Shown one piece after another: positions 1 to 55,554 of a stretch of DNA of 64,000 nucleotides. The stretch's first letter is position 1, and every line of letters begins with the position of its first letter. The notes under the pieces were generated by a model. That model saw only the letters and a list, made by a program, of their open reading frames with translations, was not told the origin of the DNA and searched no databases. The stretch lies in the NCBI RefSeq assembly GCF_046105845.1, contig NZ_CP151004.1, one strand, 5' to 3'. The position numbers were made by a program, and so were the translations under genes. Source of the DNA: Escherichia coli (GTDB lineage: Bacteria; Pseudomonadota; Gammaproteobacteria; Enterobacterales; Enterobacteriaceae).

Positions 1-232
1 CGTTACCGCGACGTCTTGCCGGGTAAAAACGGCCTGCGGAGAAGAACGCTGCGCCAATCGGGTAGCCGCGTCCGGGGTGTAAATCTGGCATCCCTACTAC
101 GCGCTGCATGTTGGGTAAATTTGCCGTGGTGTGTAATTGTTGGATCGCTAAACTCTCGATCCACAGGTCATCAGATGCGATGGTAAATACCGCATAGGAT
201 AAGGGACGAATATATTTGCCCATGTATCATTC
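1..232 (-). CDS. 5' end of an RtcB-family RNA ligase-like gene, partial (continues beyond window start)
   Basis: Reverse-strand ATG at 232 gives MGKYIRPLSY...VVGMPDLHPGRGYPIGAAF, resembling the conserved N-terminal motif of RtcB; in E. coli the rtcB2/prfH locus lies next to yafP. Not in the ORF track because it is cut by the window edge. Confidence 0.4.
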
Positions 233-467
233 CATTTATACTCGTCATACTTCAAGTTGCATGTACTGCGACTCGAATTATTTAGAGTATATAAATATAA
301 AAATCAGGAAATGGCAGACGAATCCAGGGCAAGAAAAAAGAATTAATCCTGGAAAGGTCTGCAAAGAGTCATTGATAAAGGATTTGTCATGATTTACCTC
401 CTTGCAGTTTGTGGAATAAGAAAACGCGCACATACCAGGCGGGTGTTATTTTCATTGCAAGCTGAAT

Positions 468-920
468 TTAATGTTGCGGTTTATATCGCATAGAAAAATT
501 AGTAAACCACGCTCCCCTGCATTCAACGCGCTGCTGCTTAACTGTCTGAAAACCATAACGTTCAAAAAAGGGTTTTGCGGTTATGCTGGCGTCCACCGTA
601 AGTTCGGATTCAGACTTAATCAAAGGTTTTAACAAAGCGCTGGCAACCCCACAGCGGGTGTATTCAGGGTCAACAAATAACATATCGATATAGTGTTCAA
701 TGCGGGAAATAAAACCAACCGATTGTGCATTAATGATCGCAACCCACACTTGTGATTTCGCGAATTTCTCCTTCCAGCGAGATTCGTCAATCTGCGCCCA
801 GGCGGCAATTTGCTGCGGAGAATAGTGCTGACTGGCAGTCATCGTAACCGCTCGAAGGAAAATAGCGCATAGTTGCTGAAAATCGCCAGGCTGATAGTTT
901 CTTATTTGTATGTTATTCAT
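468..920 (-). CDS. yafP: GNAT-family N-acetyltransferase YafP
   Basis: 150 aa ORF; last gene of the dinB-yafN-yafO-yafP arrangement; acetyltransferase-like sequence. Confidence 0.85.
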   Translation of the reverse strand: MNNIQIRNYQPGDFQQLCAIFLRAVTMTASQHYSPQQIAAWAQIDESRWKEKFAKSQVWVAIINAQSVGFISRIEHYIDMLFVDPEYTRCGVASALLKPLIKSESELTVDASITAKPFFERYGFQTVKQQRVECRGAWFTNFSMRYKPQH

Positions 921-929
921 AATATAAAT

Positions 930-1328
930 TCAAAAACGCATGCGAAACGCTTCTGCCATTTTTCCAATTTTATGCATTTGGTTGTTATCTCGAGCCAGTT
1001 TATGAGGTTCAGGCTTCAGAATGGCAATGAGCAACCATGCTTGCTCATCAAACGCACCCTGACAATATACCAAATGCGCTTCGTCATTCGTTCTGCTGAA
1101 TTGGCGCAACTGTGGCGGAAATGGATTATTCACATTTGCCAGATGAATATGAGCAACTCGCTCAAATTTGATTAATGGCCAGGTAAACGAGTCGTCGTAG
1201 AGTGCATCGCGACCAAATATATCTGGCAAAACACCGTCACGCTTATAGGAAATAAAATCCGCCGTTAACGCATCAAGTTCCTCTGCTGTAAGTTGCAGGC
1301 GAATAAGTTTTGTTTTGAATACCCGCAT
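930..1328 (-). CDS. yafO: Type II toxin YafO (ribosome-dependent mRNA interferase)
   Basis: 132 aa ORF immediately downstream of yafN (2-bp spacing); position and size as in the dinB operon. Confidence 0.85.
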   Translation of the reverse strand: MRVFKTKLIRLQLTAEELDALTADFISYKRDGVLPDIFGRDALYDDSFTWPLIKFERVAHIHLANVNNPFPPQLRQFSRTNDEAHLVYCQGAFDEQAWLLIAILKPEPHKLARDNNQMHKIGKMAEAFRMRF

Positions 1329-1330
1329 CC

Positions 1331-1624
1331 TTATTCCTTAAAGTCATTGAAATCATCATCCGTCATATCATTAAGATATTGTTCAGCGCGGCGTGTAATT
1401 TCCTCTAATCTTGCAGCACTTGGACGGAAGCGCGCCTTTATGGGCTTTTTCTCCTCTTGTTCAGCAAGCATGTCCATTAACGCTTCGAATGCGCTGGCAC
1501 TTAAGAGATATCCTGCGGGGCGATTATTAGAAAGAACCGCAACCGGTTGATCAATAAAGTATTTAGCTGGGTTTTTACGTAACTCAGTAATATTGACCGA
1601 TTTTTCAGCGAGAATTCGATGCAT
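1331..1624 (-). CDS. yafN: Type II antitoxin YafN (Phd/YefM-like)
   Basis: 97 aa ORF starting MHRILAEKSVNITELRKNPAKYF; antitoxin-before-toxin order with yafO. Confidence 0.85.
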   Translation of the reverse strand: MHRILAEKSVNITELRKNPAKYFIDQPVAVLSNNRPAGYLLSASAFEALMDMLAEQEEKKPIKARFRPSAARLEEITRRAEQYLNDMTDDDFNDFKE

Positions 1625-1675
1625 ACAGTGATCCCCTCATAATAATGCACACCAGAATAGACATAATAGTATACA

Positions 1676-2731
1676 TCATAATCCCAGCACCAGTTGTCTT
1701 TCCATTTGCGGGTCAAGTAACGTCACATGCAGCCCCACCAGACGCACACCGCGCCCGCCACGGCGTTCATCCCAGGTTTTACGCGCAGTGGCGATCAAGT
1801 CAGCTTTATTCAGCCGTGGCCAGACGTGCTCCTGAGTAGTTTGCTGAAAATCATCAAACTTTAATTTCACCCCCTGGCGAGCAATCAGTAAATCAGGTTT
1901 AACCTTTGCCAGGCGGCGTTCAAGTTCCGGGTACAGCCGCTCGATAATCGCTTCACATTCAGACCAGTGATGAATATCTTCCGCCATCGTGCGTTCCACG
2001 CCGACGGATTTTCGCAACCGTTCGCTGTTAACGTCGCGCTCGTCAATCCCCTGACTACGCTCCCACAAAATGCGGCCAAATTTGCCAAAACGTTTGAGCA
2101 GAGTCACCAGATCACACTTTTGCACATCACCGCAGGTCCGCAGCCCCATCGCTTCCAGTTTTGCCGCCGAAACTTTGCCGACGCCGGGAATTTTTGCCAG
2201 CGGTAAGGTTTGCAGAAATGCCGGAACTTCTGCCGGAGTAATCACAAACTGACCGTTGGGTTTATTCATGTCGGAAGCAATTTTGGCGAGAAACTTTACC
2301 GGCGCAACGCCCGCAGATGCCGTCAGTTGCAGCTCGTTAAAGATCGTCTGACGGATTTCCTGGGCGATGAGGGTCGCGGAGCCGTGGCAATGCACACTAT
2401 CGGTGACGTCGAGATAGGCTTCATCCAGTGATAACGGTTCAATGCGCGAGGTGAAGCGCGAGAAAATTTCGCGGATATGATTTGAGGCTTCTTTGTAGGC
2501 GTCAAAGCGCCCTGGAAGCAGCGTGAGATGTGGGCATAATTTGAGTGCCATCCCTGTCGGCATAGCGCTACGTACGCCAAATTTACGCGCGGGATAATTG
2601 GCGGTGCTGATCACCCCCCGACGTTCGCGGCTGCCGCCAATAGCAATAGGGATATCGCGCAGGGCGGGATTGTCGCGCATCTCCACCGCTGCGAAAAAGC
2701 AGTCCATATCCACATGAATGATTTTACGCAT
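1676..2731 (-). CDS. dinB: DNA polymerase IV (Y-family translesion polymerase)
   Basis: 351 aa ORF starting [33 protein letters not shown], the DinB N-terminus. Confidence 0.95.
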
Positions 2732-2745
2732 TGCTCACCTCTCAA

Positions 2746-2765
2746 CACTGGTAAAGTATACAGTG
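2746..2765 (-). promoter_or_regulatory. LexA (SOS) box of the dinB promoter
   Basis: Plus strand cactggtaaagtatacagtg; reverse complement CACTGTATACTTTACCAGTG fits the CTGT-N8-ACAG LexA consensus, about 15 bp upstream of the dinB start. Confidence 0.8.
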
Positions 2766-2801
2766 ATTTCAGGGTTTGAGAAATGCGTAAAGATTCAGCA
2801 T

Positions 2802-3500
2802 CTAGCGCGTTCGCTGCGAATGCACCTGCTGCTTATCCAGCTTTTGCACCAGCGGCTGCACCACTTTATCCCCATGCTGACCAAAGTATTGATACAGCGT
2901 ATCGGACGCACTTTTGGTCAGCACCATAATCTCAATGCGTCGGTTGCCCGCGCTTTGCGGATTTTTCGCGTCCAGCAGCATCTGGTCCGCCATCGCGCTC
3001 ACCTGCATCACTTTATCTTCCGGCATTCCGGCCTCTTCCAGCACCCGACGAGCCGAAAGCGCGCGATCGCCCGAAAGGTTCCAGTTGTTGTAGATATTGT
3101 TTTTGTAGGCCATCGCATCGGTATGCCCGGTAATAATAATTTTGTTATCGAGCGAGTCGAACACTGGCGCGAGCTCCACCAGCAAAGTTTTAAAGAACGG
3201 CATAATCTGTGCGCTGCCGCGTTCAAACATATTGCGGTTCTGGTCATCTTTAATCAGCACGCGCAGTCCCTGGGGAACAATCTCCATCTCCAGATTCGCT
3301 TCCATATGTGCATCACGGGCAATGGTGTTGATACTGGTCGCCAGCTCGCCAAGCTCAGTAGCGGATTTCTTCTTCAGCAGCGCCGTTTTCTCATTGACGT
3401 CACGCGCTTTTTTCTCCGTCTCTTCCGGCACCGCCACGGTGGCAGGTTTTGGCGGATGAGACGGGCTGATTTTATTTAACGGCGACAACCCGCCGCCATT
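2802..3500 (-). pseudogene. lafU: lafU remnant (MotB-like lateral-flagellar motor protein, C-terminal OmpA-like part only)
   Basis: ORF 2802..3692 has an OmpA/MotB C-terminal domain (NWNLSGDRALSARRVLEEAG...NRRIEI) but no N-terminal transmembrane helix; its first ~65 codons are antisense to lfhA, so the real 5' part is missing. Confidence 0.7.
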
Positions 3501-5271
3501 GAAAATCGACTGCCCGTGCAGCGCGGCGATAATGCTTTCACGCTCGGATTTACTGACGCTGTTGACAATCAACTTTATCGTCGTCACCAAAGGGGCCGAG
3601 CGTATTTCCGAGGTTTCTGCCCGCTTTACCTTAGACGCGATGCCCGGTAAACAGATGGCGATTGACGCCGATCTTAACGCTGGGTTGATCAACCAGGCGC
3701 AGGCGCAAACCCGGCGTAAAGATGTTGCCAGCGAGGCCGATTTCTACGGCGCGATGGACGGGGCATCGAAGTTTGTGCGCGGGGACGCCATCGCCGGGAT
3801 GATGATTCTGGCGATCAACCTGATCGGCGGCGTCTGTATCGGCATCTTCAAATACAACCTGAGCGCCGACGCCGCCTTCCAGCAGTATGTGCTGATGACC
3901 ATCGGCGACGGGCTGGTGGCGCAGATCCCGTCCCTGCTGCTCTCCACCGCGGCGGCAATTATCGTCACCCGCGTCAGCGACAATGGCGATATCGCCCATG
4001 ACGTGCGCCACCAGCTGCTGGCAAGCCCGTCGGTGCTCTACACCGCCACCGGGATCATGTTTGTGCTGGCGGTGGTGCCGGGGATGCCGCATCTGCCATT
4101 TTTGCTGTTCAGCGCCCTGCTGGGTTTTACCGGCTGGCGGATGAGCAAACGCCCGCAGGCGGCGGAGGCGGAGGAGAAAAGCCTCGAAACGCTGACCCGC
4201 ACCATCACCGAAACCAGCGAGCAACAGGTCAGTTGGGAGACTATTCCGCTGATCGAACCCATCAGTTTAAGCCTCGGTTACAAACTGGTGGCGCTGGTCG
4301 ATAAAGCGCAGGGTAACCCACTCACCCAGCGTATTCGCGGCGTGCGGCAAGTGATATCCGACGGCAACGGCGTGCTGCTGCCGGAGATCCGTATTCGGGA
4401 AAACTTCCGCCTCAAGCCCAACCAGTACGCCATATTCATCAACGGCATTAAGGCCGATGAAGCGGATATTCCGGCGGATAAACTGATGGCCCTGCCCTCC
4501 AGCGAAACCTACGGCGAGATTGACGGCGTGCTGGGGAACGACCCGGCGTACGGGATGCCGGTCACCTGGATTCAGCCTGCGCAGAAAGCGAAGGCGCTGA
4601 ATATGGGGTATCAGGTGATCGACAGCGCCAGCGTGATTGCCACCCATGTGAACAAGATTGTCCGCAGCTATATTCCTGATTTGTTTAACTATGACGATAT
4701 TACTCAGCTGCATAACCGTTTGTCGTCGATGGCACCGCGACTGGCGGAAGATTTGAGCGCGGCGCTCAATTACAGCCAGTTGCTGAAAGTGTACCGGGCG
4801 CTACTGACTGAAGGCGTTTCCCTACGCGATATCGTCACCATCGCCACCGTGCTGGTCGCCAGTAGCACAGTGACCAAAGATCATATTCTGCTGGCAGCTG
4901 ATGTGCGCCTGGCGCTACGGCGCAGCATTACCCATCCGCTCGTTCGCAAGCAGGAGCTGACGGTGTATACGCTGAATAATGAGCTGGAAAATCTGCTGAC
5001 CAACGTGGTGAATCAGGCGCAACAGGCCGGCAAAGTGATGCTCGACAGCGTGCCGGTGGACCCGAATATGCTTAACCAGTTCCAGAGTACGATGCCACAG
5101 GTGAAGGAGCAGATGAAAGCGGCGGGGAAAGACCCGGTGCTGCTGGTGCCGCCGCAACTGCGTCCATTGCTGGCGCGCTATGCAAGGTTGTTTGCGCCGG
5201 GGCTGCATGTGCTGTCGTATAACGAAGTGCCGGATGAGCTGGAGTTGAAGATTATGGGGGCGCTGAGTTGA
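3499..5271 (+). pseudogene. lfhA: lfhA remnant (FlhA-family export gate protein lacking the N-terminal membrane region)
   Basis: ORF begins inside the FlhA signature (ITKGAERISEVSARFTLDAMPGKQMAIDADLNAG) without the ~130 aa transmembrane N-terminus; C-terminus looks complete. It converges on and overlaps lafU. Confidence 0.75.
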
Positions 5272-5307
5272 TGCCTTTTAAGAAACACAATACGATGACA
5301 TCAATTT

Positions 5308-5703
5308 ATGACGTCAGGGATTGATAAGATGATGAAAACGCGTTTATTAATATCTCAAGCATCGAACATTATCACCATTAAAGGTCAACCAGCCGCAGTG
5401 ACATTTGAAGCCGATATCAACGCATTTCGCGGCAAATTTCTCAATGTAAATGGTTATTGCGACTTTGTAGCGACAAGCATTGAGGCGTTATACCGGGAAG
5501 GTGAAAGTGCGCTGGATGAGTGGATGGCGGATTGTGAAGAGGACGGCATTGCCCCTTTTCGTGAAGAAGAGCAAAAACGCCTGACGCTTCGTGTTCCTCA
5601 TCACATCGATTCACGACTGACCATTGTCGCCAGACAACATTCCATTTCAAAAAATCAGCTCATTGTTGATGTATTAGAACGTGAGTTTTCATCCCAGATG
5701 TAA
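5308..5703 (+). CDS. HicB-like antitoxin-family protein with C-terminal ribbon-helix-helix (no HicA partner seen)
   Basis: 131 aa ORF; C-terminus ...RLTIVARQHSISKNQLIVDVLEREF looks RHH-like; likely start at ATG 5329/5332 after an aggga Shine-Dalgarno. Family assignment is from memory. Confidence 0.5.
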   Translation: MTSGIDKMMKTRLLISQASNIITIKGQPAAVTFEADINAFRGKFLNVNGYCDFVATSIEALYREGESALDEWMADCEEDGIAPFREEEQKRLTLRVPHHIDSRLTIVARQHSISKNQLIVDVLEREFSSQM

Positions 5704-5709
5704 ACAGGT

Positions 5710-5738
5710 CGGATGCCGTGTGGCATCCGATTTTTTTC
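5710..5738 (+). terminator. Rho-independent terminator after the HicB-like gene
   Basis: cggatgcc-gtgt-ggcatccg hairpin followed by a T-run (attttttt). Confidence 0.55.
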
Positions 5739-5759
5739 CTGATCGTCAGTATTCTCCGT

Positions 5760-6518
5760 TTACAAAATCGTCTCTTCCGTCAAAATCCTGCGCGCGCCTA
5801 AAAAATGATCCTGCCAGAAAGGCTCAGCTAACCGACTTACCCGAATGGTTTCCCCCGTGCGCGGCGACTCGATAAACTGACCGTCTCCCAGATACACGCC
5901 CATATGATCGGCTATCTCGCGGCTGTGGATATGGAAAAACAGCAAATCTCCCCGGCGCAGGTCGTTGTTCGCCACAATCGTTGCCCGATGGTAGTGATAC
6001 ATCTCATTAGCCGTACGCGGGAGCTTCGCCTCGAGGATCTTGTTGTAGGCATAAAAAACCAACCCGCTACAGTCGAAGCCTTGATCAGGCCGCGTGCCGC
6101 CCCAGACGTAAGGTTTGCCAAGCTGCTGCTCCAGGCGGTGAATCGCCACTTCGGTGATGTTGTGTAGATGGTCGCTGCTTAAGAAATGGTTGTTCTCCGC
6201 CAGCGCCTGCCAGCGTCTGTCACTCGCCTTGAGCGGCGCAGGAAACCATTCTGGATGCTGTTTTATCTGTTCGCGGTTGTGCTGGCGCAGCGCCTTTCTG
6301 CTTTCGGCATTGCCTTCCACAATGTAGCTGGCCTGCTTTTTCAGATGGGTTTGGTACTGTTTTAATAAACGCGCCCGGTTTTGCATCCGCTGGCGGGCGG
6401 CGTAGCTGAAAGAGATATGTGATGTGGTGGCGCTGGCGAGTAAAGGGAGCAAAACGCATAACGAAAACACGCCTGGATGCAGAAATCTGCCGTGAAAGAA
6501 CGAAGACATGAAGGACAT
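5760..6518 (-). CDS. yafL: NlpC/P60-family lipoprotein peptidase YafL
   Basis: 252 aa ORF; signal peptide plus NlpC/P60 catalytic region (YVWGGTRPDQGFDCSGLVFYAY). Confidence 0.85.
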   Translation of the reverse strand: MSFMSSFFHGRFLHPGVFSLCVLLPLLASATTSHISFSYAARQRMQNRARLLKQYQTHLKKQASYIVEGNAESRKALRQHNREQIKQHPEWFPAPLKASDRRWQALAENNHFLSSDHLHNITEVAIHRLEQQLGKPYVWGGTRPDQGFDCSGLVFYAYNKILEAKLPRTANEMYHYHRATIVANNDLRRGDLLFFHIHSREIADHMGVYLGDGQFIESPRTGETIRVSRLAEPFWQDHFLGARRILTEETIL

Positions 6519-6809
6519 AAACTAGCTGAATGAAGGAGAGAATTTTAAAAGGTTGGGGGAGTAAACGGGATTATTAATTGCTTATTTGCATATTAGTTAC
6601 GAGGTTTCATAATCTTAGGAAATAAGTGATACATGCGCTTTTCGGACTAATGAAAACTGCCCCTGTGCTAAATTTGTAAACCCTGCGCCGACAGGCTTGC
6701 GTAAAACTCTTTTGGTGATAATGTGAGCCTTCCAAATCCAGACTATTCCGATTTGGGATCCATTTTGCCGTCCTGGCGTGTGTAACCGTTTTATCAAGGA
6801 ATAAGCAGT

Positions 6810-7550
6810 ATGCGTAAAATCGCATTAATTCTTGCGATGTTGTTGATCCCGTGCGTTTCGTTTGCCGGTTTGCTGGGCAGCAGTAGCTCAACCACGCCAG
6901 TGAGCAAAGAGTATAAGCAGCAGTTGATGGGATCCCCTGTCTACATCCAGATCTTCAAGGAAGAACGTACGCTCGATCTCTACGTCAAAATGGGCGAGCA
7001 ATATCAGCTGCTCGACAGTTATAAAATCTGTAAATATTCCGGCGGCTTAGGGCCAAAACAGCGTCAGGGCGATTTCAAAAGCCCGGAAGGGTTTTATAGC
7101 GTCCAGCGTAATCAGTTAAAACCAGACAGCCGTTACTACAAAGCAATTAATATTGGATTCCCCAATGCCTATGACCGTGCGCATGGTTATGAAGGGAAAT
7201 ACCTGATGATCCACGGCGATTGTGTTTCCATCGGCTGCTACGCGATGACCAATCAGGGTATTGATGAGATCTTCCAGTTCGTTACTGGTGCGCTGGTGTT
7301 TGGTCAGCCGAGCGTGCAAGTGAGTATTTACCCGTTCCGCATGACCGACGCCAATATGAAGCGCCATAAGTATTCCAACTTTAAGGACTTCTGGGAGCAA
7401 CTGAAACCGGGCTACGACTACTTTGAGCAAACCCGTAAGCCACCGACCGTTTCTGTGGTCAATGGCCGTTACGTGGTCAGCAAGCCGTTAAGCCACGAAG
7501 TTGTGCAACCACAGCTGGCATCAAACTACACGCTCCCCGAGGCAAAATAA
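6810..7550 (+). CDS. yafK: L,D-transpeptidase-family periplasmic protein YafK
   Basis: 246 aa ORF with signal peptide [19 protein letters not shown] and a YkuD-like domain with [14 protein letters not shown]. Confidence 0.88.
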
Positions 7551-8288
7551 GCGCCATTCGCCTGGCATAATCTTTTGCCAGGTTTCATTGCCCGTCAGCG
7601 GCTGTGTCGCAATCACCGTGACCACATCATTCGGTGTGGTCTGCGAGCTGAAGTCGATTTCCACATCCTGATCCAGCAACGTTGCCACGCCAAACGGCGC
7701 GCGGCGGGTGATCCAGTGTAAATTAGTCGAGCAATACGCCATTACATAGCGCCCGTCAGAAAGCAGCATGTTGAAAACGCCCTTCTGCCGCAGTTCATCC
7801 GCCAGTGAGGCGATATATTTAAACACTGCCGCCATGTTGCCCGGTGTGCGCGGGTAACGCTGCGTTAATTTATGCAGGAGCCAGCAGAAGGCTTTTTCGC
7901 TGTCGGTTTCACCGACCGGGCGGAAGTTGCCGGTTTCCAGTGATTTATAGCCCGTCAGTTGCCCATTATGGGCATAAGTCCAGTTACGCCCCCATAACTC
8001 GCGGGTAAACGGGTGAGTATTTTCCAGCGCCACCTCGCCCCGATTCGCCTGGCGAATATGAGCCACCACCGAACAGGATTTTATCGGGTAGTCCTGGACA
8101 AGTTTGGCGATGGGAGAATTAAAGCTGGGTTGCGGATCTTTAAATGTGCGACAGCCTTTACCTTCGTAAAAGGTAATGCCCCAGCCATCTTTATGTGGCC
8201 CGGTTCCACCACCACGCTGTACAAGCCCGGTGAAACTAAAGCAGATATCGGTAGGGACGTTGGCGCTCATCCCGAGCAATTCGCACAT
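7521..8288 (-). CDS. yafJ: Class-II glutamine amidotransferase-like protein YafJ
   Basis: ORF 7521..8303; probable start at [11 protein letters not shown], typical of Ntn-type amidotransferases. Confidence 0.85.
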
Positions 8289-8403
8289 GGGTAACCTCCA
8301 CAACAGCGGGAGCGCATGGCCCCCGGCGAAGATTGATTAAAAAGTACAAAGGTTCAGGCTGTTACCCTCACCCCGGCCCTCTCCCTGAAAGGGAGAAAAG
8401 ACC

Positions 8404-8982
8404 TTACTTAACCATCTCTTTTTCAATCAACTGGATCAGGATATGGATCACTTTAATGTGAATCTCCTGAATGCGGTCGGCATAACCAAAGTGCGGTACG
8501 CGAATTTCGATATCCGCTGTGCCAGCCATTTTACCGCCGTCTTTACCGGTCAGGGTGATCACTTTCATCCCCTTCTCACGCGCCGCCGCGATCGCTTTGA
8601 TCACGTTTGCAGAGTTACCGGAGGTGGAGATCCCCAGCAGTACATCGCCTTCGCGACCTACCGCTTCAACGTAACGGGAGAAAATATCATTGAAACCAAA
8701 ATCGTTACCGACGCAGGAAATATGACTAACGTCAGAAATGGCAATCGCCGGATAGCCCGGACGGTTTTCACGGTAGCGACCGGTCAACTCTTCGGCAAAG
8801 TGCATGGCGTCGCAATGGGAGCCGCCGTTGCCGCAGGAAAGCACTTTACCACCGGCTTTAAAGCTGTCTGCTAACAGGACCGCCGCGCGCTGAATGGCGT
8901 GAATATTGGCGTCATCTTTTAAAAAGTTAGCCAGCGTTTCCGCCGCTTCGTTCAGTTCATTACGAATAAGATCCTGGTACAT
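8404..8982 (-). CDS. gmhA: Phosphoheptose (sedoheptulose-7-phosphate) isomerase GmhA
   Basis: 192 aa from [21 protein letters not shown]...; the ORF track extends 30 codons upstream of the real start. Confidence 0.92.
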
Positions 8983-9182
8983 GAGGATATCCTTCAGCAT
9001 AAATGTAATAGACAAAATGCAGTGTACCGGATACCGCCAAAAGCGAGAAGTACGGGCAGGTGCTATGACCAAGACTTTTTGACCTGAAGTGCGGATAAAA
9101 ACAGCAACAATGTGAGCTTTGTTGTAATTATATTGTAAACGTATTGCTAAATGTTTTTACATCCACTACAACCATATCATCA

Positions 9183-9199
9183 CAAGTGGTCAGACCTCC
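9183..9199 (+). promoter_or_regulatory. Putative FadR operator in the fadE promoter
   Basis: caagtggtcagacctcc resembles the FadR consensus (TGGTCNGACC core) about 25 bp upstream of the fadE start. Confidence 0.55.
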
Positions 9200-9221
9200 T
9201 ACAAGTAAGGGGCTTTTCGTT

Positions 9222-11666
9222 ATGATGATTTTGAGTATTCTCGCTACGGTTGTCCTGCTCGGCGCGTTGTTCTATCACCGCGTGAGCTTATTTATCAGCA
9301 GTCTGATTTTGCTCGCCTGGACAGCCGCCCTCGGCGTTGCTGGTCTGTGGTCGGCGTGGGTACTGGTGCCTCTGGCCATTATCCTCGTGCCATTTAACTT
9401 TGCGCCTATGCGTAAGTCGATGATTTCCGCGCCGGTATTTCGCGGTTTCCGTAAGGTAATGCCGCCGATGTCGCGCACTGAGAAAGAAGCGATTGATGCG
9501 GGCACCACCTGGTGGGAGGGCGACTTGTTCCAGGGCAAGCCGGACTGGAAAAAGCTGCATAACTATCCGCAGCCGCGCCTGACCGCAGAAGAGCAAGCGT
9601 TTCTCGACGGCCCGGTAGAAGAAGCCTGCCGGATGGCGAATGATTTCCAGATTACTCATGAGATGGCTGATTTGCCGCCGGAGTTGTGGGCGTACCTTAA
9701 AGAGCATCGTTTCTTCGCGATGATCATCAAAAAAGAGTACGGCGGGCTGGAGTTCTCGGCTTATGCCCAATCTCGTGTGCTGCAAAAACTCTCCGGCGTG
9801 AGCGGGATCCTGGCAATTACCGTCGGCGTGCCGAACTCATTAGGCCCGGGCGAGCTACTGCAACATTACGGCACTGATGAGCAGAAAGATCACTATCTGC
9901 CACGTCTGGCGCGTGGTCAGGAGATCCCTTGCTTTGCACTGACCAGCCCGGAAGCGGGTTCCGATGCGGGCGCGATTCCGGACACCGGGATTGTCTGCAT
10001 GGGCGAATGGCAGGGCCAGCAGGTGCTGGGGATGCGTCTGACCTGGAACAAGCGTTACATTACGCTGGCACCGATTGCGACTGTGCTTGGCCTGGCATTT
10101 AAACTCTCCGACCCGGAAAAACTGCTGGGTGGCGCAGAAGATTTAGGTATTACCTGTGCGCTGATCCCGACTACCACGCCGGGCGTGGAAATTGGTCGTC
10201 GCCACTTCCCGCTGAACGTACCGTTCCAGAACGGACCGACGCGAGGTAAAGATGTGTTCGTGCCGATCGATTACATCATCGGCGGGCCGAAAATGGCCGG
10301 GCAAGGCTGGCGGATGCTGGTGGAGTGCCTCTCGGTAGGCCGCGGCATCACCCTGCCTTCCAACTCAACCGGCGGCGTGAAATCGGTAGCGCTGGCAACG
10401 GGTGCGTATGCGCACATCCGCCGTCAGTTCAAAATCTCTATTGGTAAGATGGAAGGGATTGAAGAGCCGCTGGCGCGTATTGCCGGAAACGCTTATGTAA
10501 TGGATGCTGCGGCATCGCTGATTACCTACGGCATTATGCTCGGTGAAAAACCTGCCGTGCTGTCGGCTATCGTTAAGTATCACTGTACCCACCGTGGGCA
10601 GCAGTCGATTATTGATGCGATGGATATCACTGGTGGCAAAGGCATTATGCTCGGGCAGAGCAACTTCCTGGCCCGTGCTTACCAGGGCGCACCGATTGCC
10701 ATCACCGTTGAAGGGGCTAACATTCTGACCCGCAGCATGATGATCTTCGGACAAGGAGCGATTCGTTGCCATCCGTACGTGCTGGAAGAGATGGAAGCGG
10801 CGAAGAACAATGACGTCAACGCGTTCGATAAACTCCTGTTTAAACATATCGGTCACGTCGGTAGCAACAAAGTTCGCAGCTTCTGGCTGGGCCTGACGCG
10901 CGGTTTAACCAGCAGCACGCCAACCGGCGATGCCACTAAACGCTACTATCAGCACCTGAACCGCCTGAGCGCCAACCTCGCCCTGCTTTCTGATGTCTCG
11001 ATGGCTGTGCTGGGCGGCAGCCTGAAACGTCGTGAGCGTATCTCGGCACGTCTGGGGGATATTTTAAGCCAGCTTTACCTCGCCTCTGCCGTTCTGAAGC
11101 GTTATGACGACGAAGGCCGTAATGAAGCCGACCTGCCGCTGGTGCACTGGGGCGTACAGGATGCGCTGTATCAGGCTGAACAGGCGATGGATGATTTACT
11201 GCAAAACTTCCCGAACCGCGTGGTTGCCGGGCTGCTGAATGTGGTGATCTTCCCGACCGGACGTCATTATCTGGCACCTTCTGACAAGCTGGATCATAAG
11301 GTGGCGAAGATTTTACAAGTGCCGAACGCCACCCGTTCACGTATTGGTCGCGGTCAGTACCTGACGCCGAGCGAGCATAACCCGGTTGGTTTACTGGAAG
11401 AGGCGCTGGTGGATGTGATTGCCGCCGACCCAATTCATCAGCGGATCTGTAAAGAGCTGGGTAAAAACCTGCCGTTTACCCGTCTGGATGAACTGGCGCA
11501 CAACGCGCTGGCGAAGGGGCTGATTGATAAAGATGAAGCCGCTATGCTGGTGAAAGCTGAAGAAAGCCGTCTGCGCAGTATTAACGTTGATGACTTTGAT
11601 CCGGAAGAGCTGGCGACGAAGCCGGTAAAGTTGCCGGAGAAAGTGCGGAAAGTTGAAGCCGCGTAA
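9222..11666 (+). CDS. fadE: Acyl-CoA dehydrogenase FadE
   Basis: 814 aa from [22 protein letters not shown] (aagggg Shine-Dalgarno upstream); the ORF track begins 26 codons earlier. Confidence 0.92.
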
Positions 11667-11674
11667 TTGAATAA

Positions 11675-11699
11675 CGGAGCCGAAAGGCTCCGTTTCTTT
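11675..11699 (+). terminator. Rho-independent terminator after fadE
   Basis: cggagcc-gaaa-ggctccg hairpin followed by tttcttt. Confidence 0.6.
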
Positions 11700-11708
11700 A
11701 TCCGCTAA

Positions 11709-12182
11709 TTATTTAAAATTAAAGCCATCCGGATGGTTTTCCAGGCTGCCGGTCAACGCCGCGAACAGCACCGTTTTACCATCAATCGAAAGCGCATCGT
11801 TCACATTCAACCAGGTGAGTTTCTCTTGCGACGTTTTCTCATCAATGGTCGAGAACAGCCCCGTCATCTGATTAGATTTCTCGGACCACATCACAGCGAT
11901 ACGTTGCGAGCCACAGTCATGCGGTTTGCACGCGCTCATCACCTGATACGTCTCATCTCCCAATGTCACGGTTTGTGCAGGGGTATAAGTCCCGCCTTTC
12001 ATCACCCAAGCAGGCAGCTTATGCCCTTGCACCATCTGATTAAACGCAGCTTTGGTGGTTTCGCCCTTTGCAAGGCTGCTAATGGTTAAATCATCCTGCG
12101 CCATTGCACTGGTGGCGATGACCAGAGCGGCGACTGTCGTTATTGCCTTAAACATCATTCCTCCCGAGCTTATCCTGCCCAT
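11709..12182 (-). CDS. ivy: Inhibitor of vertebrate C-type lysozyme (Ivy)
   Basis: 157 aa ORF with signal peptide and the CKPHDCG motif. Confidence 0.9.
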   Translation of the reverse strand: MGRISSGGMMFKAITTVAALVIATSAMAQDDLTISSLAKGETTKAAFNQMVQGHKLPAWVMKGGTYTPAQTVTLGDETYQVMSACKPHDCGSQRIAVMWSEKSNQMTGLFSTIDEKTSQEKLTWLNVNDALSIDGKTVLFAALTGSLENHPDGFNFK

Positions 12183-12335
12183 GTTATTAACCTCCTAAAG
12201 CCTGGCGATAACACGATAATTTGCAAATCAGATATTTCCAATATCAGCATTTGTTATCAATTTATTCTGCGCTAAGGCAACTGCCTGATAAGGTGTTAGA
12301 GTTATAAAACCCTTCGCATAAAGGAGTTGTACACC

Positions 12336-13106
12336 GTGCCTGGTTTGAAGATTACGCTTTTACAGCAACCACTGGTGTGGATGGATGGTCCTGCCAACCT
12401 GCGTCATTTTGATCGTCAACTGGAAGGCATTACCGGGCGCGATGTGATCGTTCTACCGGAGATGTTTACCAGCGGCTTTGCCATGGAAGCGGCAGCTGCG
12501 TCGCTAGCACAAGATGACGTAGTGAACTGGATGACAGCCAAAGCGCAGCAGTGCAATGCGCTGATTGCAGGCAGTGTTGCATTACAAACGGAGTCTGGTT
12601 CGGTTAACCGCTTTTTGCTGGTTGAGCCGGGCGGCACGGTACATTTTTATGATAAGCGTCATCTGTTCCGCATGGCAGATGAGCATCTGCATTATAAAGC
12701 GGGCAATGCGCGAGTGATTGTGGAATGGCGCGGCTGGCGTATTTTGCCGCTGGTGTGCTACGACTTACGTTTTCCGGTGTGGTCGCGCAATCTCAACGAT
12801 TACGACCTCGCCCTGTACGTCGCCAACTGGCCTGCTCCGCGCTCTCTGCACTGGCAGGCATTGCTGACGGCCCGCGCGATTGAGAATCAAGCGTATGTGG
12901 CGGGATGCAATCGCGTCGGCAGCGATGGCAACGGCTGCCATTATCGCGGTGACAGCCGGGTGATTAATCCACAGGGCGAGATTATCGCCACCGCCGACGC
13001 GCATCAGGCAACGCGCATTGATGCGGAGCTGTCGATGGTGGCGTTGCGGGAGTATAGAGAAAAGTTTCCGGCATGGCGGGATGCGGATGAGTTTAGGTTG
13101 TGGTGA
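12336..13106 (+). CDS. yafV: Nitrilase-superfamily omega-amidase YafV
   Basis: Likely GTG start at 12336 (aaggag Shine-Dalgarno at 12321-12326) giving (M)PGLKITLLQQ...; carbon-nitrogen hydrolase fold. Confidence 0.85.
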   Translation: MPGLKITLLQQPLVWMDGPANLRHFDRQLEGITGRDVIVLPEMFTSGFAMEAAAASLAQDDVVNWMTAKAQQCNALIAGSVALQTESGSVNRFLLVEPGGTVHFYDKRHLFRMADEHLHYKAGNARVIVEWRGWRILPLVCYDLRFPVWSRNLNDYDLALYVANWPAPRSLHWQALLTARAIENQAYVAGCNRVGSDGNGCHYRGDSRVINPQGEIIATADAHQATRIDAELSMVALREYREKFPAWRDADEFRLW

Positions 13107-49398: not shown

Positions 49399-49475
49399 TG
49401 GCGGAACGGACGGGACTCGAACCCGCGACCCCCTGCGTGACAGGCAGGTATTCTAACCGACTGAACTACCGCTCC
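49399..49475 (-). tRNA. aspV: tRNA-Asp (GUC)
   Basis: Reverse complement reads GGAGCGGTAGTTCAGTCGGTTAGAATACCTGCCTGTCACGCAGGGGGTCGCGGGTTCGAGTCCCGTCCGTTCCGCCA. Confidence 0.97.
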
Positions 49476-49607
49476 GCGTTGTGTTCCGTTGGGAACGAGG
49501 CGAATATTACGGATTGCCTCGTCCTTCGTCAACGATTTTTCTCATCTTTTGAATCGTTTGCTGCAAAAATCGCCCAAGTCGCTATTTTTAGCGCCTTTTA
49601 CATGTAT

Positions 49608-50339
49608 TTATGCCCGCCAGAGGCAGCTTCCGCCCTTCTTCTGCACCAGATCAAGACGGGCTTCATGAGCTGCAAGCTCTTCATCTGTCGCAAAAACAAC
49701 GCGTAACTTACTTGCCTGACGTACAATGCGCTGAATTGTTGCTTCACCTTGTTGCTGCTGTGTCTCTCCTTCCATCGCAAAAGCCATCGACGTTTGACCA
49801 CCGGTCATCGCCAGATAAACTTCCGCAAGGATCTGGGCATCGAGTAATGCCCCGTGCAGCGTTCGTTTACTGTTATCTATTTCGTAGCGGGCACATAACG
49901 CATCGAGGCTGTTGCGTTTACCGGGAAACATTTTCCTCGCCACCGCAAGGCTATCGGTGACCTTACAGAAGGTATTGGTCTTCGGAATATCGCGCTTAAG
50001 CAACGAAAACTCGTAGTCCATAAAGCCGATATCGAACGCTGCGTTATGGATCACCAGCTCCGCGCCGCGGATATAGTCCATGAACTCATCGGCTACCTCT
50101 GCAAACGTGGGCTTATCGAGCAAAAATTCATCGGCAATACCATGTACGCCAAAGGCTTCCGGATCCACCAGCCGATCGGGTTTGAGATAAACATGGAAGT
50201 TATTGCCCGTCAGGCGACGGTTCACCACTTCAACGGCACCAATCTCAATGATCTTGTGGCCTTCATAGTGCGCACCAATCTGGTTCATACCGGTGGTTTC
50301 GGTATCGAGAACGATCTGGCGTGTAATTGCAGTGCTCAT
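49608..50339 (-). CDS. dnaQ: DNA polymerase III epsilon subunit (3'-5' proofreading exonuclease)
   Basis: 243 aa from [22 protein letters not shown]..., the DnaQ sequence. Confidence 0.95.
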
Positions 50340-50403
50340 AGCGGTCATTTATGTCAGACTTGTCGTTTTACAGTTCGATTCAATTACAGGAAGTCTACCA
50401 GAG

Positions 50404-50871
50404 ATGCTTAAACAGGTAGAAATTTTCACCGATGGTTCGTGTCTGGGTAATCCTGGACCTGGGGGTTACGGTGCTATTTTACGCTATCGTGGACGCGAAA
50501 AAACTTTTAGCGCTGGCTACACCCGCACCACCAACAACCGTATGGAGTTGATGGCCGCTATTGTCGCGCTGGAAGCGTTAAAAGAACACTGTGAAGTCAT
50601 TCTGAGTACCGACAGCCAGTATGTCCGCCAGGGGATCACCCAGTGGATCCATAACTGGAAAAAACGTGGCTGGAAAACAGCAGACAAAAAACCAGTAAAA
50701 AATGTCGATCTCTGGCAACGTCTTGATGCTGCGTTGGGGCAGCATCAAATCAAATGGGAATGGGTTAAAGGCCATGCCGGTCATCCAGAAAACGAACGTT
50801 GCGATGAGCTGGCTCGTGCCGCAGCGATGAATCCCACACTGGAAGATACGGGCTATCAAGTCGAAGTTTAA
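50404..50871 (+). CDS. rnhA: Ribonuclease HI
   Basis: 155 aa [28 protein letters not shown]...; divergent from dnaQ. Confidence 0.95.
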
Positions 50872-51590
50872 GCCTGTGGTTTACGACATTGCCGGGTGGC
50901 TCCAACCGCCTGGCGAATTCGTGGCTTGTTTTTACTCTGTTTCATCGGATTTAGCGTTAAAGGAATAGTCCGTTTCCGGGCGACAATAAGTTGTAAGCAA
51001 CCAAGCGCAGGAATATGCGCATTCAATAGTTTTCCACCGTGTTTGTTCCACGGGAGAACGTGGAAACGGCTGGCGTGTAGCACTTCAAAATTCAACAAAG
51101 AGAGCCAGTCCAGCTGCCGCATCAGAGTAAACATCCGGCTGTTATAAGGCGAGGTTTTTCGCAATACCGGCACAAGTTTGCGTAATCCCATTAAACTGAT
51201 GGGATTGAAGCCACTAATCACCAGCCAGCCATCATCAATCAATACCCGATCGGCTTCACGCAATAAACGATGCGGATCGGTGCACCACGGCAATGTATGT
51301 GCCAGTAGACAAACATCAACGGATTTATCGGCAAAAGGAAGATGAAGTGGGTCCGCCTGCACCTGGACGGGCAGTCCTTGCGCAGAAACATTCACTTGAT
51401 GAGAAACCGCGCACGCTTCGCAATTGATTTCTGCGCTTAAATTGCCAATCTTAAGCAGATGAAAACCATACATTTTAGTGAACCACGGGTTGAGCTGGCG
51501 CTCCAGCGCCTTGCGATAAAGCTCTCCCCAGGGCAAATCGCCCCAGCAATCAGGAGCCACGACAGTTTGAGGGACTCTTGCCGGTTTCAT
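50868..51590 (-). CDS. yafS: SAM-dependent methyltransferase YafS
   Basis: About 240 aa from [25 protein letters not shown] track starts 6 codons earlier. Confidence 0.85.
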
Positions 51591-51620
51591 CACAACCTTC
51601 CGTTTCACACTGAGAGGTAA

Positions 51621-52379
<759 letters not shown>

Positions 52380-52450
52380 TAAAACTTTCTTGTCATCGGC
52401 TCCGTTCGCCGTTATGATCGGTCGTCTTTTAAGCAACTATTGACACACAC

Positions 52451-53809
52451 ATGAAGGCAAAAGCGATATTACTCGCCTCTGTCCTGCTCGTGGGTTGCCA
52501 GAGTACCGGCAACGTTCAACAGCACGCACAGAGCCTTTCTGCAGCTGGTCAAGGGGAAGCAGCAAAGTTTACAAGTCAGGCACGATGGATGGACGATGGG
52601 ACGTCTATCGCGCCAGATGGTGACTTGTGGGCTTTCATTGGCGACGAGCTAAAGATGGGAATTCCGGAAAATGACCGGATTCGCGAACAGAAACAGAAAT
52701 ATTTACGCAATAAGAGCTATCTCCACGATGTAACTTTACGGGCAGAGCCGTATATGTACTGGATAGCCGGGCAAGTTAAAAAACGTAACATGCCTATGGA
52801 ACTGGTACTACTACCCATAGTGGAGAGCGCTTTTGATCCTCACGCAACGTCTGGCGCCAATGCAGCAGGCATCTGGCAGATCATTCCGAGCACGGGGCGC
52901 AATTATGGTTTGAAACAGACCCGCAATTATGACGCGCGTCGCGATGTTGTTGCTTCAACAACTGCCGCGCTGAACATGATGCAGCGTCTGAACAAGATGT
53001 TTGACGGCGACTGGCTTCTGACCGTAGCGGCTTATAACAGCGGCGAAGGTCGAGTCATGAAGGCAATTAAAACGAACAAAGCGCGTGGGAAATCCACGGA
53101 CTTCTGGTCGTTACCGTTGCCGCAGGAAACGAAGCAGTACGTGCCTAAAATGCTGGCATTGAGTGATATTCTCAAAAACAGCAAGCGTTATGGCGTACGT
53201 CTGCCAACGACCGATGAAAGCCGTGCTCTGGCGCGTGTGCACCTGAGCAGCCCAGTTGAAATGGCGAAGGTTGCAGATATGGCGGGGATTTCCGTCAGCA
53301 AGCTGAAGACATTCAACGCTGGCGTGAAAGGCTCCACGCTGGGCGCAAGTGGTCCGCAGTACGTGATGGTGCCAAAGAAGCATGCAGATCAACTGCGTGA
53401 ATCTCTGGCTTCGGGCGAAATTGCTGCTGTACAGTCGACGCTGGTTGCCGACAATACGCCGCTTAACAGCCGTGTTTACACCGTACGCTCTGGCGACACG
53501 CTTTCAAGTATCGCTTCACGTCTCGGCGTTAGCACCAAAGATTTGCAGCAGTGGAACAAACTGCGCGGATCTAAGCTGAAGCCAGGCCAAAGCTTGACGA
53601 TTGGCGCAGGTAGTAGCGCACAGCGGTTGGCAAACAACAGCGATAGCATTACGTATCGTGTGCGCAAAGGCGATTCGCTTTCAAGCATTGCTAAACGCCA
53701 CGGCGTGAACATCAAAGATGTGATGCGCTGGAACAGCGATACTGCGAATCTGCAACCAGGCGATAAGCTGACGTTGTTTGTGAAAAACAACAACATGCCA
53801 GATTCCTGA
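52451..53809 (+). CDS. mltD: Membrane-bound lytic murein transglycosylase D
   Basis: 452 aa; lipoprotein signal (LLVGCQS), transglycosylase domain and C-terminal LysM repeats. Confidence 0.92.
   Translation: MKAKAILLASVLLVGCQSTGNVQQHAQSLSAAGQGEAAKFTSQARWMDDGTSIAPDGDLWAFIGDELKMGIPENDRIREQKQKYLRNKSYLHDVTLRAEPYMYWIAGQVKKRNMPMELVLLPIVESAFDPHATSGANAAGIWQIIPSTGRNYGLKQTRNYDARRDVVASTTAALNMMQRLNKMFDGDWLLTVAAYNSGEGRVMKAIKTNKARGKSTDFWSLPLPQETKQYVPKMLALSDILKNSKRYGVRLPTTDESRALARVHLSSPVEMAKVADMAGISVSKLKTFNAGVKGSTLGASGPQYVMVPKKHADQLRESLASGEIAAVQSTLVADNTPLNSRVYTVRSGDTLSSIASRLGVSTKDLQQWNKLRGSKLKPGQSLTIGAGSSAQRLANNSDSITYRVRKGDSLSSIAKRHGVNIKDVMRWNSDTANLQPGDKLTLFVKNNNMPDS

Positions 53810-54702: not shown

Positions 54703-55554
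<852 letters not shown>

What the first reader, a model, noticed from the sequence alone, without database searches (positions are those of the whole stretch)
1..232. RtcB-like gene start at the window edge
A partial reverse-strand ORF shows the RtcB-family N-terminal motif. In some E. coli an rtcB2-prfH ribosome-rescue pair sits next to yafP while K-12 keeps only fragments, so the state of this gene (intact or not) is of interest but cannot be resolved from 232 bp.
Basis: inference. Interest (0 to 1): 0.3.

Follow-up and report, generated by a model that had tools for sequence, protein, structure and literature searches.

The report
Dead stub of rtcB2 repair gene
This is the leftover first fifth of a ribosome-repair gene (rtcB2), destroyed by the same known 1-kb deletion found in laboratory E. 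coli K-12 and about half of sequenced E. coli; the finding is therefore ordinary, but the control region just upstream holds a small conserved reading frame and RNA hairpin that may be an undescribed switch for this repair operon.

Summary
A minus-strand ORF starts at ATG 223, and window 17-223 encodes RtcB2 residues 1-69 (97% identical to intact E. coli RtcB2).

RtcB2 homology stops at base 17. Bases 1-16 are prfH nt 99-114, joined out of frame. This is the known K-12 ykfJ/prfH scar: a 1,027-bp deletion between 9-bp near-repeats (TACCCGGCA/TACCCGACA).

The deletion removes RtcB2 residues 70-379, including all six catalytic or metal-binding residues, and the first 32 codons of PrfH. The same junction is in 2,690 of 5,426 complete E. 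coli genomes. The locus is a non-functional remnant, already described in the literature.

One lead lies outside the given coordinates. The upstream region (window about 297-460) is retained, and 12 genera or replicons share:
- a promoter-like site (11 of the 12);
- a Shine-Dalgarno-led 13-15-codon uORF;
- a hairpin with compensatory changes that overlaps the uORF;
- a segment able to pair with the rtcB2 ribosome-binding site.

I found no description of it in Rfam 15 or in the papers searched. It may be a ribosome-dependent leader for rtcB2-prfH. That reading is inference, not shown.

The parts
1..16 (-). prfH-derived bases (prfH nt 99-114, codons 33/34-38), fused out of frame to the rtcB2 stub
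   Evidence: 16/16 identical to intact prfH of SX48 and 504211 at that position. A 25-nt match spans the junction, E=7.8e-8. In CFSAN018748, AST215, K-12 and 7/2 the sequence continues into the prfH remnant.
17..25 (-). 9-bp junction microhomology TACCCGGCA (rtcB2 copy); the prfH copy in intact alleles is TACCCGACA
   Evidence: Breakpoint contexts in four intact operons. The two blastn matches overlap by 9 nt.
17..223 (-). rtcB2 5' remnant, codons 1-69 (the K-12 ykfJ equivalent); pseudogene
   Evidence: PGAP annotates the identical stretch in CFSAN018748 and AST215 as an RtcB family protein pseudogene missing its C-terminus.
227..233 (-). rtcB2 ribosome-binding segment (R5), here GGAATGA where other alleles have GGAATGG
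   Evidence: Alignments; duplex analysis; coordinates.
237..291 (-). Short ERIC-like repeat inserted in the 5' leader (K-12 has the long form with 72 extra internal bases; EC958, SX48 and CE0007a have none)
   Evidence: Alignments. Partial Rfam isrH match at 235-301, 26.8 bits, below the gathering score of 45. The ERIC identification rests on my memory of the consensus.
297..319 (-). U-rich tract (297-306), R4 CCATTTCC (307-314, can pair with the rtcB2 RBS) and R3 GTCTGC (314-319, 3' arm of the conserved hairpin)
343..390 (-). 15-codon upstream ORF MTNPLSMTLCRPFQD*; codons 8-12 (357-368) form R2, the 5' arm of the hairpin
   Evidence: Identical in 11 E. coli loci. A 13-15-codon uORF with a Shine-Dalgarno sequence sits at the same place in 12 genera/replicons.
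397..407 (-). uORF Shine-Dalgarno AAGGAGG (397-403) within R1 CTGCAAGGAG (398-407), complementary to R2
432..460 (-). Promoter-like site: -35 TTGCAA (455-460), 17-bp spacer, -10 TGGTAT (432-437; TAGTAT in all non-deleted alleles seen)
   Evidence: TTGnnn-17/18-TAnnnT lies 27-40 nt upstream of the uORF Shine-Dalgarno in 11 of 12 genera/replicons. The A/G difference is seen. This is a consensus match only.
468..920 (-). yafP (GNAT acetyltransferase), the upstream neighbour that fixes the locus

Best explanation
Window 1-223 (minus strand) is the K-12-type remnant of the rtcB2-prfH ribosome-repair operon. A 1,027-bp deletion between two 9-bp near-identical direct repeats joined rtcB2 codon 69 to prfH codon 33 out of frame. 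The repeats are TACCCGGCA in rtcB2 and TACCCGACA in prfH. Replication slippage or illegitimate recombination at these repeats is my inference.

What is left is an 84-codon ORF: 69 RtcB2 residues followed by a frameshifted tail, of which 74 codons lie in the window. It lacks every catalytic or metal-binding residue of the ligase (D74, C77, H137, H168, H239 and the GMP-accepting H294). The prfH start and its first 32 codons are also gone.

In intact strains PrfH releases the peptide from ribosomes whose 16S rRNA was cut between A1493 and G1494 by colicin E3 or CdiA-CT, and RtcB2 then religates the rRNA. This allele cannot do either. The strain should behave like K-12/BW25113, which is colicin-E3 sensitive (prediction). 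The promoter, leader and uORF upstream are still present but show a -10 A->G change and an RBS G->A change, consistent with decay.
For: Junction and alignment. The first 460 nt are 100% identical to E. coli CFSAN018748, where PGAP annotates an RtcB fragment at window-equivalent 17-223 and a prfH fragment from 21 leftwards. K-12 carries the same junction. A 120-nt junction probe is covered in one piece in 2,690 of 5,426 genomes; the rest match the two halves separately. The same split appears as matches starting at query base 1 versus base 17. Catalytic residue positions come from the alignment to P. horikoshii and T. thermophilus RtcB structures and from motif positions; H294 is named as the catalytic histidine in PMC9304027. 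Family profile hits cover only positions 1-69 of 379. No other RtcB2 or PrfH match exists in the window. [quoted passage not shown] The ancestral state is intact in four other Escherichia species representatives and syntenic in other Enterobacteriaceae.
Against: Only 16 bases on the prfH side lie inside the window, so the rest of the remnant is inferred from relatives. The source genome is not in the collection: the best identity over 13 kb is 97.6%. The stub ORF is still open, and there are no expression or phenotype data for this strain. The single-origin-plus-recombination and recurrent-deletion scenarios for the junction are not distinguished. The stub haplotype differs between K-12 and this lineage (6 versus 2 nt from CE0007a).
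Confidence: 0.95

Rival explanations
1. The ORF is the start of an intact rtcB2 whose remainder lies beyond the window edge. This is the possibility the first reader left open.
For: The ORF is open to base 1, and intact operons exist at this locus in other strains.
Against: After codon 69 the sequence is AGACGTCGCGGTAACG (prfH), not CTGGTCGGCAATGATATCGGCTGCGG (rtcB2). The encoded residues are ARRRGN instead of ALVGNDIGCGM. Genomes with a full-length rtcB2 match the window only from base 17.
Confidence: 0.01
2. The 84-88-residue YkfJ-like product (69 RtcB2 residues plus a frameshifted tail) is expressed and has acquired a function of its own, for example by binding ribosomes or RtcB partners.
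For: The stub ORF is uninterrupted in all five deletion alleles examined. The upstream leader is retained.
Against: No catalytic residue is retained. Lineage-specific substitutions are present: D10Y here and F59L in strain 7/2. The putative -10 hexamer lost its A at position 2 in all five deletion alleles, and the RBS is altered in this lineage. Knockouts in BW25113 showed no phenotype with colicin E3 (PMC9223846). K-12 annotates it as a pseudogene.
Confidence: 0.04
3. The K-12-type junction arose repeatedly at the 9-bp repeat (a deletion hotspot) rather than once. Its ~50% frequency would then reflect recurrent loss or selection against the operon.
For: The deletion is flanked by a repeat. 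Deletion alleles carry different flanking haplotypes: K-12 resembles EC958, while the window resembles CE0007a. The junction is in 2,690 of 5,426 genomes, including K-12 and O157:H7.
Against: All five deletion alleles share the linked -10 A->G change 200 nt upstream, which none of the ten non-deleted alleles has. That favours a single origin followed by recombination. The first 460 nt are identical to an otherwise 97%-identical genome, which shows recombination at this locus.
Confidence: 0.15

Closest known systems
E. coli K-12 ykfJ (b0235) / prfH (b0236) pseudogenes
   Same: Identical junction sequence, the same 1,027-bp deletion, the same position downstream of dinB-yafNOP, and the same frameshifted stub ORF.
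   Different: The window lineage has D10Y, a short rather than long ERIC-like insert in the leader, and GGAATGA at the RBS. Its nearest relatives also carry a second 169-bp deletion in the prfH remnant that removes the GGQ motif. That region lies outside the window, so this is inferred for the source strain.
Intact RtcB2-PrfH ribosome rescue/repair module (E. coli ATCC 25922, CFT073, EC958)
   Same: Orthologous locus, 95-99% nucleotide identity over the retained 207 nt, and the same leader and promoter region.
   Different: Intact strains have a 379-aa ligase and a 204-aa release factor with overlapping stop and start codons. Here 82% of RtcB2 and the start of PrfH are deleted, so the repair activity shown in PMC9304027, PMC9223846 and PMC13166195 cannot be present.
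RtcB1 of the rtcBA operon (the canonical E. coli RNA ligase)
   Same: Same protein family (PF01139).
   Different: It is a paralogue with only 28% identity (PMC9304027), a different locus, and mutually exclusive substrates. It is not in this window.
uORF/leader-peptide translational attenuators (ermCL-ermC, cat leaders, toiL-topAI)
   Same: For the upstream element only: a short Shine-Dalgarno-led ORF in a 5' leader, mutually exclusive pairings that overlap the uORF, and a segment complementary to the downstream RBS.
   Different: No sequence similarity. Conservation is at the RNA level rather than the peptide level, because the IncC plasmid copy reads the conserved motif in another frame. The first pairing segment overlaps the uORF's own Shine-Dalgarno sequence. 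Neither the inducing signal nor any regulation has been shown.

Membership tests
RtcB RNA ligase family (PF01139; NCBIfam NF007153; TIGR03073 'release_rtcB') | Profile match over the full length, above the curated cut-off | tested here: not met
   NF007153 scores 106 bits against a cut-off of 407 and covers profile positions 1-69 of 379 only. Pfam scores 24.1 against 27. Intact EC958 RtcB2 scores 642 and 250 bits in the same calls.
RtcB RNA ligase family (PF01139; NCBIfam NF007153; TIGR03073 'release_rtcB') | Metal-binding Asp/Cys/His residues and the GMP-accepting histidine (D74, C77, H137, H168, H239, H294 in EcRtcB2) | tested here: not met
   All of these lie after residue 69, where homology ends. 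H294 is described as catalytic in PMC9304027.
RtcB RNA ligase family (PF01139; NCBIfam NF007153; TIGR03073 'release_rtcB') | The retained part descends from an RtcB2 gene | tested here: met
   97% amino-acid and 95-99% nucleotide identity to intact rtcB2 codons 1-69 at the orthologous locus.
PrfH (TIGR03072, peptide chain release factor H) | Complete ORF with GGQ motif, translationally coupled to rtcB2 | tested here: not met
   Only prfH nt 99-114 are in the window, out of frame with the stub. The start codon and codons 1-32 are deleted. The rest of the remnant is outside the window. In the three nearest relatives the GGQ region is also deleted.
K-12-type ykfJ/prfH deletion allele | Junction TACCCGGCA|AGACGTCGCGG identical to K-12 | tested here: met
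   Alignment. The junction probe is covered in one piece in 2,690 genomes, including K-12-like strains.
K-12-type ykfJ/prfH deletion allele | Location between yafP and pepD | tested here: inconclusive
   The yafP side is met. The pepD side lies beyond window base 1, though it is present in all relatives.
Ribosome-dependent (uORF) leader attenuators - upstream element only | Conserved short ORF with a Shine-Dalgarno sequence in the 5' leader | tested here: met
   13-15 codons, 118-153 nt upstream of rtcB2, in 12 of 12 genera/replicons.
Ribosome-dependent (uORF) leader attenuators - upstream element only | RNA helix overlapping the uORF, supported by covariation | tested here: met
   R2:R3 hairpin: 91.7% of cells paired in the outer helix. 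Pair types are AU6/GC5/GU1 and AU9/GU2/GC1. The covariation score is 0.244 against 0.190+-0.024 for shuffles (7 of 500 reach it), and only 22-50% are paired when the partner is slid. RNAalifold predicts the same hairpin. Only 12 sequences were used, so support is moderate.
Ribosome-dependent (uORF) leader attenuators - upstream element only | Alternative pairing that competes with that helix, and sequestration of the downstream RBS | tested here: inconclusive
   R1:R2 is 95.7% paired but shows no double-sided changes. The R4:RBS duplex is -7 to -9.7 kcal/mol in 11 of 12. Matched species average -7.18 against -5.95 for mismatched pairs, permutation p=0.0066, not corrected for phylogeny.
Ribosome-dependent (uORF) leader attenuators - upstream element only | uORF is translated and its translation state changes downstream expression | not testable with these tools
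   Needs Ribo-seq, toeprinting or reporter assays.
ERIC (enterobacterial repetitive intergenic consensus) repeat | Match to the ERIC consensus termini and palindromic core | tested here: inconclusive
   Window 237-291 equals the two ends of the K-12 element joined without its 72-bp core. The identification as ERIC rests on my recollection of the consensus and primer sequences. No ERIC library was available. There is a partial Rfam isrH hit below threshold.

The most novel reading that the evidence does not exclude
The retained region upstream of the stub (window about 297-460) is an undescribed, widely conserved 5' leader of the rtcB2-prfH operon, made up of:
- its own promoter;
- a Shine-Dalgarno-led 13-15-codon uORF;
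- R1 (at the uORF Shine-Dalgarno), which can pair with R2 (uORF codons 8-11);
- R2, which can alternatively pair with R3 to form a covarying hairpin;
- R4, directly after the hairpin, which can pair with the rtcB2 ribosome-binding site.

The most novel reading is that this is a sensor of stalled or decoding-defective ribosomes. A ribosome that initiates on the uORF but cannot elongate, for example one whose 16S rRNA was cut by colicin E3, would hold R1. R2:R3 would then form, the rtcB2 start region would be released, and the repair enzymes would be made only when ribosomes are damaged. In this window, as in K-12, the sensor would be a vestige in front of a dead operon.
Probability: 0.3. Interest if true: 0.6.

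Novelty: already known. Interest (0 to 1): 0.25.

Why it matters
The finding itself settles a bookkeeping question. This strain, like K-12, O157:H7 and about half of complete E. coli genomes, has lost the RtcB2-PrfH system that repairs ribosomes cut by colicin E3-type toxins, so it should be sensitive to them. The 49.6% junction frequency also qualifies the published statement that all E. coli strains encode RtcB2.

The only part with wider interest is the leader. None of the functional papers on RtcB2-PrfH that I could read says how the operon is regulated. Because K-12 is a pseudogene at this locus, its upstream region has had little reason to be studied. A conserved uORF-plus-hairpin leader gives a concrete, testable regulatory hypothesis for a ribosome-repair system.

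Tried and rejected
1. An exact scan of one genome per species for the 31-nt junction found nothing. The species representatives that carry the locus have intact operons.
2. A 120-nt probe across the second (169-bp) prfH deletion could not count carriers, because the tool joins pieces that lie less than about 560 nt apart.
3. A metagenome scan with the pattern TTTGCRG-N55-85-GGAWTGGNNNNATGGRCAA returned 45 loci, none followed by an rtcB or prfH gene. These are chance matches, so the scan added no leader sequences.
4. Rfam at the gathering threshold and at E<=10 found no family for the leader. It gave only a sub-threshold isrH match on the ERIC-like insert and a weak plus-strand STnc350 hit, E=3.4.
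5. The 51-codon ORF at 278-433 (minus strand) that spans the conserved block was rejected as a gene. It has no Shine-Dalgarno sequence, and a T-run of 6, 7 or 9 bases inside it shifts the frame between strains.
6. A sigma-54 promoter was considered by eye and rejected because the GG/GC spacing does not fit.
7. A literal search for the uORF peptide and searches combining prfH or rtcB2 with leader, uORF or attenuation terms found nothing relevant. The four RtcB2/PrfH papers do not mention a leader, uORF or regulation.
8. Conservation at the peptide level of the uORF C-terminus (LCRPFQD) was considered. It was set aside in favour of RNA-level conservation, because the IncC plasmid copy reads the same nucleotides in another frame.
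9. Skermanella showed no comparable uORF, and Shinella has a 13-codon uORF without the recognisable motifs. The element may therefore be limited to Gamma- and Betaproteobacteria.

Full report
**Observation.** On the minus strand an ATG lies at window 223. Its translation to base 1 is MGKYIRPLSYAVFTIASDDLWIESLAIQQLHTTANLPNMQRVVGMPDLHPGRGYPIGAAFFSAGRFYPARRRGN.
- The first 69 residues match NCBIfam NF007153 (RNA ligase RtcB family protein) at E=1.9e-30 over profile positions 1-69 of 379. They match TIGR03073 'release_rtcB' at E=8e-29.
- Pfam RtcB scores 24.1 bits, below its cut-off of 27.
- tblastn with an intact E. coli RtcB2 (strain EC958) gives 97.1% identity over residues 1-69 at window 223..17, E=7e-40. 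It finds nothing else in the 64 kb.

The coordinates need trimming: the coding part is 17-223, and 224-232 is untranslated.

**The state of the gene can be read from the window.** I aligned the window against K-12, its closest relatives and an intact operon. I also inspected the breakpoints in four intact operons.
- Gene-orientation bases 1-207 (window 223-17) are rtcB2 nt 1-207, at 95-99% identity.
- Gene-orientation bases 199-223 (window 25-1) align to operon nt 1226-1250, that is prfH nt 90-114.
- The two matches overlap by 9 nt. Intact alleles read TTTTACCCGGCA|CTGGTCGGC in rtcB2 and GCTACCCGACA|AGACGTCGCGG in prfH. The window reads TTTTACCCGGCA|AGACGTCGCGG.

This is a 1,027-bp deletion between 9-bp near-identical direct repeats. 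Because 1,027 is not a multiple of three, the stub continues out of frame (ARRRGN... instead of ALVGNDIGCGM). Read through the junction in the identical CFSAN018748 sequence, the ORF stops after 84 codons. K-12 annotates the same ORF as ykfJ, starting four codons earlier. The junction is base-for-base that of K-12.

**What was lost.** Intact RtcB2 is 379 aa and PrfH is 204 aa, with overlapping stop and start codons.
- Alignment to solved RtcB structures, together with motif positions, places the metal-binding and catalytic residues at D74, C77 (NDIGCG), H137 (GGGNHF), H168 (HSGSRG), H239 and H294 (HGAGR).
- PMC9304027 used H294N as the catalytic-dead mutant.
- All of these residues lie after residue 69. 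The prfH start codon and its first 32 codons are also deleted.

From the literature, PrfH hydrolyses peptidyl-tRNA on ribosomes whose 16S rRNA is cut between A1493 and G1494 by colicin E3 or CdiA-CT(ECL). RtcB2 then religates the rRNA (PMC9304027; PMC13166195). The truncated operon of BW25113 is non-functional and that strain is colicin-E3 sensitive (PMC9223846). The K-12/O157:H7 deletion of about 1,000 nt was described in 2006 (PMC1586002). The remnant here is therefore an already known kind of pseudogene. That the strain is colicin-E3 sensitive is my prediction.

**Population context.**
- A 120-nt probe centred on the junction is covered in one piece in 2,690 of 5,426 complete E. coli genomes (49.6%). 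The others match the two halves separately.
- The same split appears as matches that start at query base 1 versus base 17.
- Other decay states exist at the locus: a full-length operon with a frameshift and an internal stop (EC7072022), and an IS110-family insertion (O145:H28 RM12761).
- All four Escherichia species representatives that carry the locus (an E. coli-named representative, E. whittamii and two unnamed Escherichia species) have full-length rtcB2. Three of them also show prfH; the fourth locus ends within rtcB2.
- The arrangement dinB-(yafP)-rtcB2-prfH-pepD is conserved in Citrobacter, Salmonella, Klebsiella, Kosakonia and Cronobacter.

Intact is therefore the ancestral state.

**Source and proxies.** The source genome is not among the complete E. 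coli genomes.
- The best identity is 97.6% over window 1-13,000 and 99.2% over 49,500-57,500.
- The first 460 nt, however, are 100% identical to strain CFSAN018748, which is only about 97% identical further on. The locus is a recombination mosaic.
- The three nearest relatives by different measures (CFSAN018748, AST215, 7/2) all have a 353-bp prfH remnant, because a second 169-bp deletion removes the GGQ region.

Whether the source strain shares the second deletion cannot be seen from the window.

**Upstream region (outside the given coordinates).** In the yafP-rtcB2 spacer, a block of about 135 nt (window about 300-437) is nearly invariant.
- It is nearly invariant in 11 E. coli loci, including alleles about 7% diverged elsewhere, and in the four other Escherichia species representatives. 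The flanks vary.
- It contains AAGGAGG followed by a 15-codon ORF (window 343-390).
- The orthologous position in Citrobacter, Salmonella, Klebsiella, Kosakonia, Cronobacter, Providencia, Proteus, Limnobaculum, Pseudomonas, the Ralstonia megaplasmid and an IncC plasmid has a Shine-Dalgarno-led uORF of 13-15 codons, 118-153 nt before rtcB2.
- The N-terminal half of the uORF varies freely, while the nucleotide motif CUUUGCRG is kept.
- In the IncC copy that motif is read in another frame (SFAG instead of LCR), so the constraint is on the RNA rather than the peptide.

**Structure tests on the leader.**
- RNAalifold predicts a hairpin whose 5' arm is uORF codons about 10-12 (R2) and whose 3' arm is GYCYGC (R3).
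- On a 12-sequence alignment the outer helix is 91.7% paired. Compensatory changes occur at two fully paired positions (AU6/GC5/GU1 and AU9/GU2/GC1), and a third, weaker outermost pair also shows them.
- The whole structure is 86% paired, against 22-50% when the partner is slid. The covariation score is 0.244 against 0.190+-0.024 for shuffles, and 7 of 500 shuffles reach it.
- R2 can alternatively pair with R1, which overlaps the uORF Shine-Dalgarno. This pairing is 95.7% paired but has only one-sided, wobble-compatible changes, so it is consistent but unproven. Single-sequence MFE folds choose it in most of the sequences.
- The segment right after the hairpin (R4, CCAnnUCC) can pair with the rtcB2 ribosome-binding site GGAWUGG in 11 of 12 sequences, at -7 to -9.7 kcal/mol. 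Matched species pair better than mismatched ones (-7.18 against -5.95, permutation p=0.0066, not corrected for phylogeny).
- A TTGnnn-17/18-TAnnnT promoter-like site lies 27-40 nt upstream of the uORF Shine-Dalgarno in 11 of 12.

**Status of the leader in this window.** Rfam 15 has no match for the leader. None of the RtcB2/PrfH papers or library searches mentions a leader or uORF.
- In the window all elements are present.
- The -10 reads TGGTAT in all five deletion alleles and TAGTAT in all ten non-deleted ones.
- The RBS reads GGAATGA in this lineage.
- A short ERIC-like repeat sits between R4 and the RBS.

**Interpretation of the leader (inference).** The architecture resembles uORF-dependent translational attenuators. 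One reading is that a ribosome arrested at the start of the uORF occupies R1. R2 then pairs with R3, and the rtcB2 start region is released. For a system that repairs decoding-centre damage this would be a fitting sensor. No step of this has been shown, and the direction of the switch is a guess.

**Verdict.** The finding as given is confirmed and fully explained by a known pseudogene allele. Its novelty is nil and its interest is low. The overall score is raised modestly by the conserved leader, which deserves a separate look in strains with an intact operon.

Noticed in passing
window 297-460 (minus strand): Conserved promoter-like site, a Shine-Dalgarno-led 15-codon uORF (343-390), a covarying hairpin (R2 357-368 with R3 314-319) and an anti-RBS segment (307-314) upstream of rtcB2. 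These are shared by 12 genera/replicons and are absent from Rfam 15 and from the papers searched.
   Followed up: partly
window 432-437 and 227-233: The putative -10 hexamer is TGGTAT in all five deletion alleles examined and TAGTAT in all ten non-deleted alleles. The rtcB2 RBS is GGAATGA in this lineage and GGAATGG elsewhere. This may be secondary decay or simple linkage.
   Followed up: partly
window 237-291: A short ERIC-like repeat, consisting of the two ends of the element without its 72-bp core. K-12, O145:H28 RM12761 and Escherichia sp. MOD1-EC7003 have the long form at the same site. EC958, SX48, CE0007a and E. whittamii have none. A partial Rfam isrH hit below threshold falls here.
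   Followed up: partly
left of window base 1 (seen in L001, L002, L011): The nearest relatives carry a second 169-bp deletion inside the prfH remnant, flanked by GCAT, which removes the GGQ motif. K-12 lacks this second deletion.
   Followed up: partly
window 1-13000 versus 49500-57500: No close relative exists among 5,426 complete E. coli genomes: the best identity is 97.6% over the first 13 kb and 99.2% over a core stretch. Bases 1-460 are nevertheless 100% identical to strain CFSAN018748. The region is a recombination mosaic in an unusual lineage.
   Followed up: partly
window about 13100-49400: A ~36-kb type VI secretion island lies next to tRNA-Asp (49399-49475). It differs from the island at this site in CFSAN018748 and is only about 95% identical to its best E. 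coli match. K-12 has only about 14 kb between this tRNA and dinB.
   Followed up: no
window 2802-5271: The lafU ORF and a 5'-truncated flhA-like ORF (590 codons) lie back to back. This is the same scar of the lateral-flagella (Flag-2) cluster that K-12 shows as lafU/lfhA pseudogenes.
   Followed up: no
window 57621-62995: A complete rRNA operon on the minus strand: 16S, tRNA-Ile, tRNA-Ala, 23S, 5S and tRNA-Asp. An Rfam StyR-44 match lies at 61014-61122, just upstream of the 23S gene. This is consistent with rrnH.
   Followed up: no
literature: PMC9304027 states that all E. coli strains encode RtcB2. Here 49.6% of complete genomes carry the K-12-type deletion, and others carry frameshifts or IS insertions.
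   Followed up: partly
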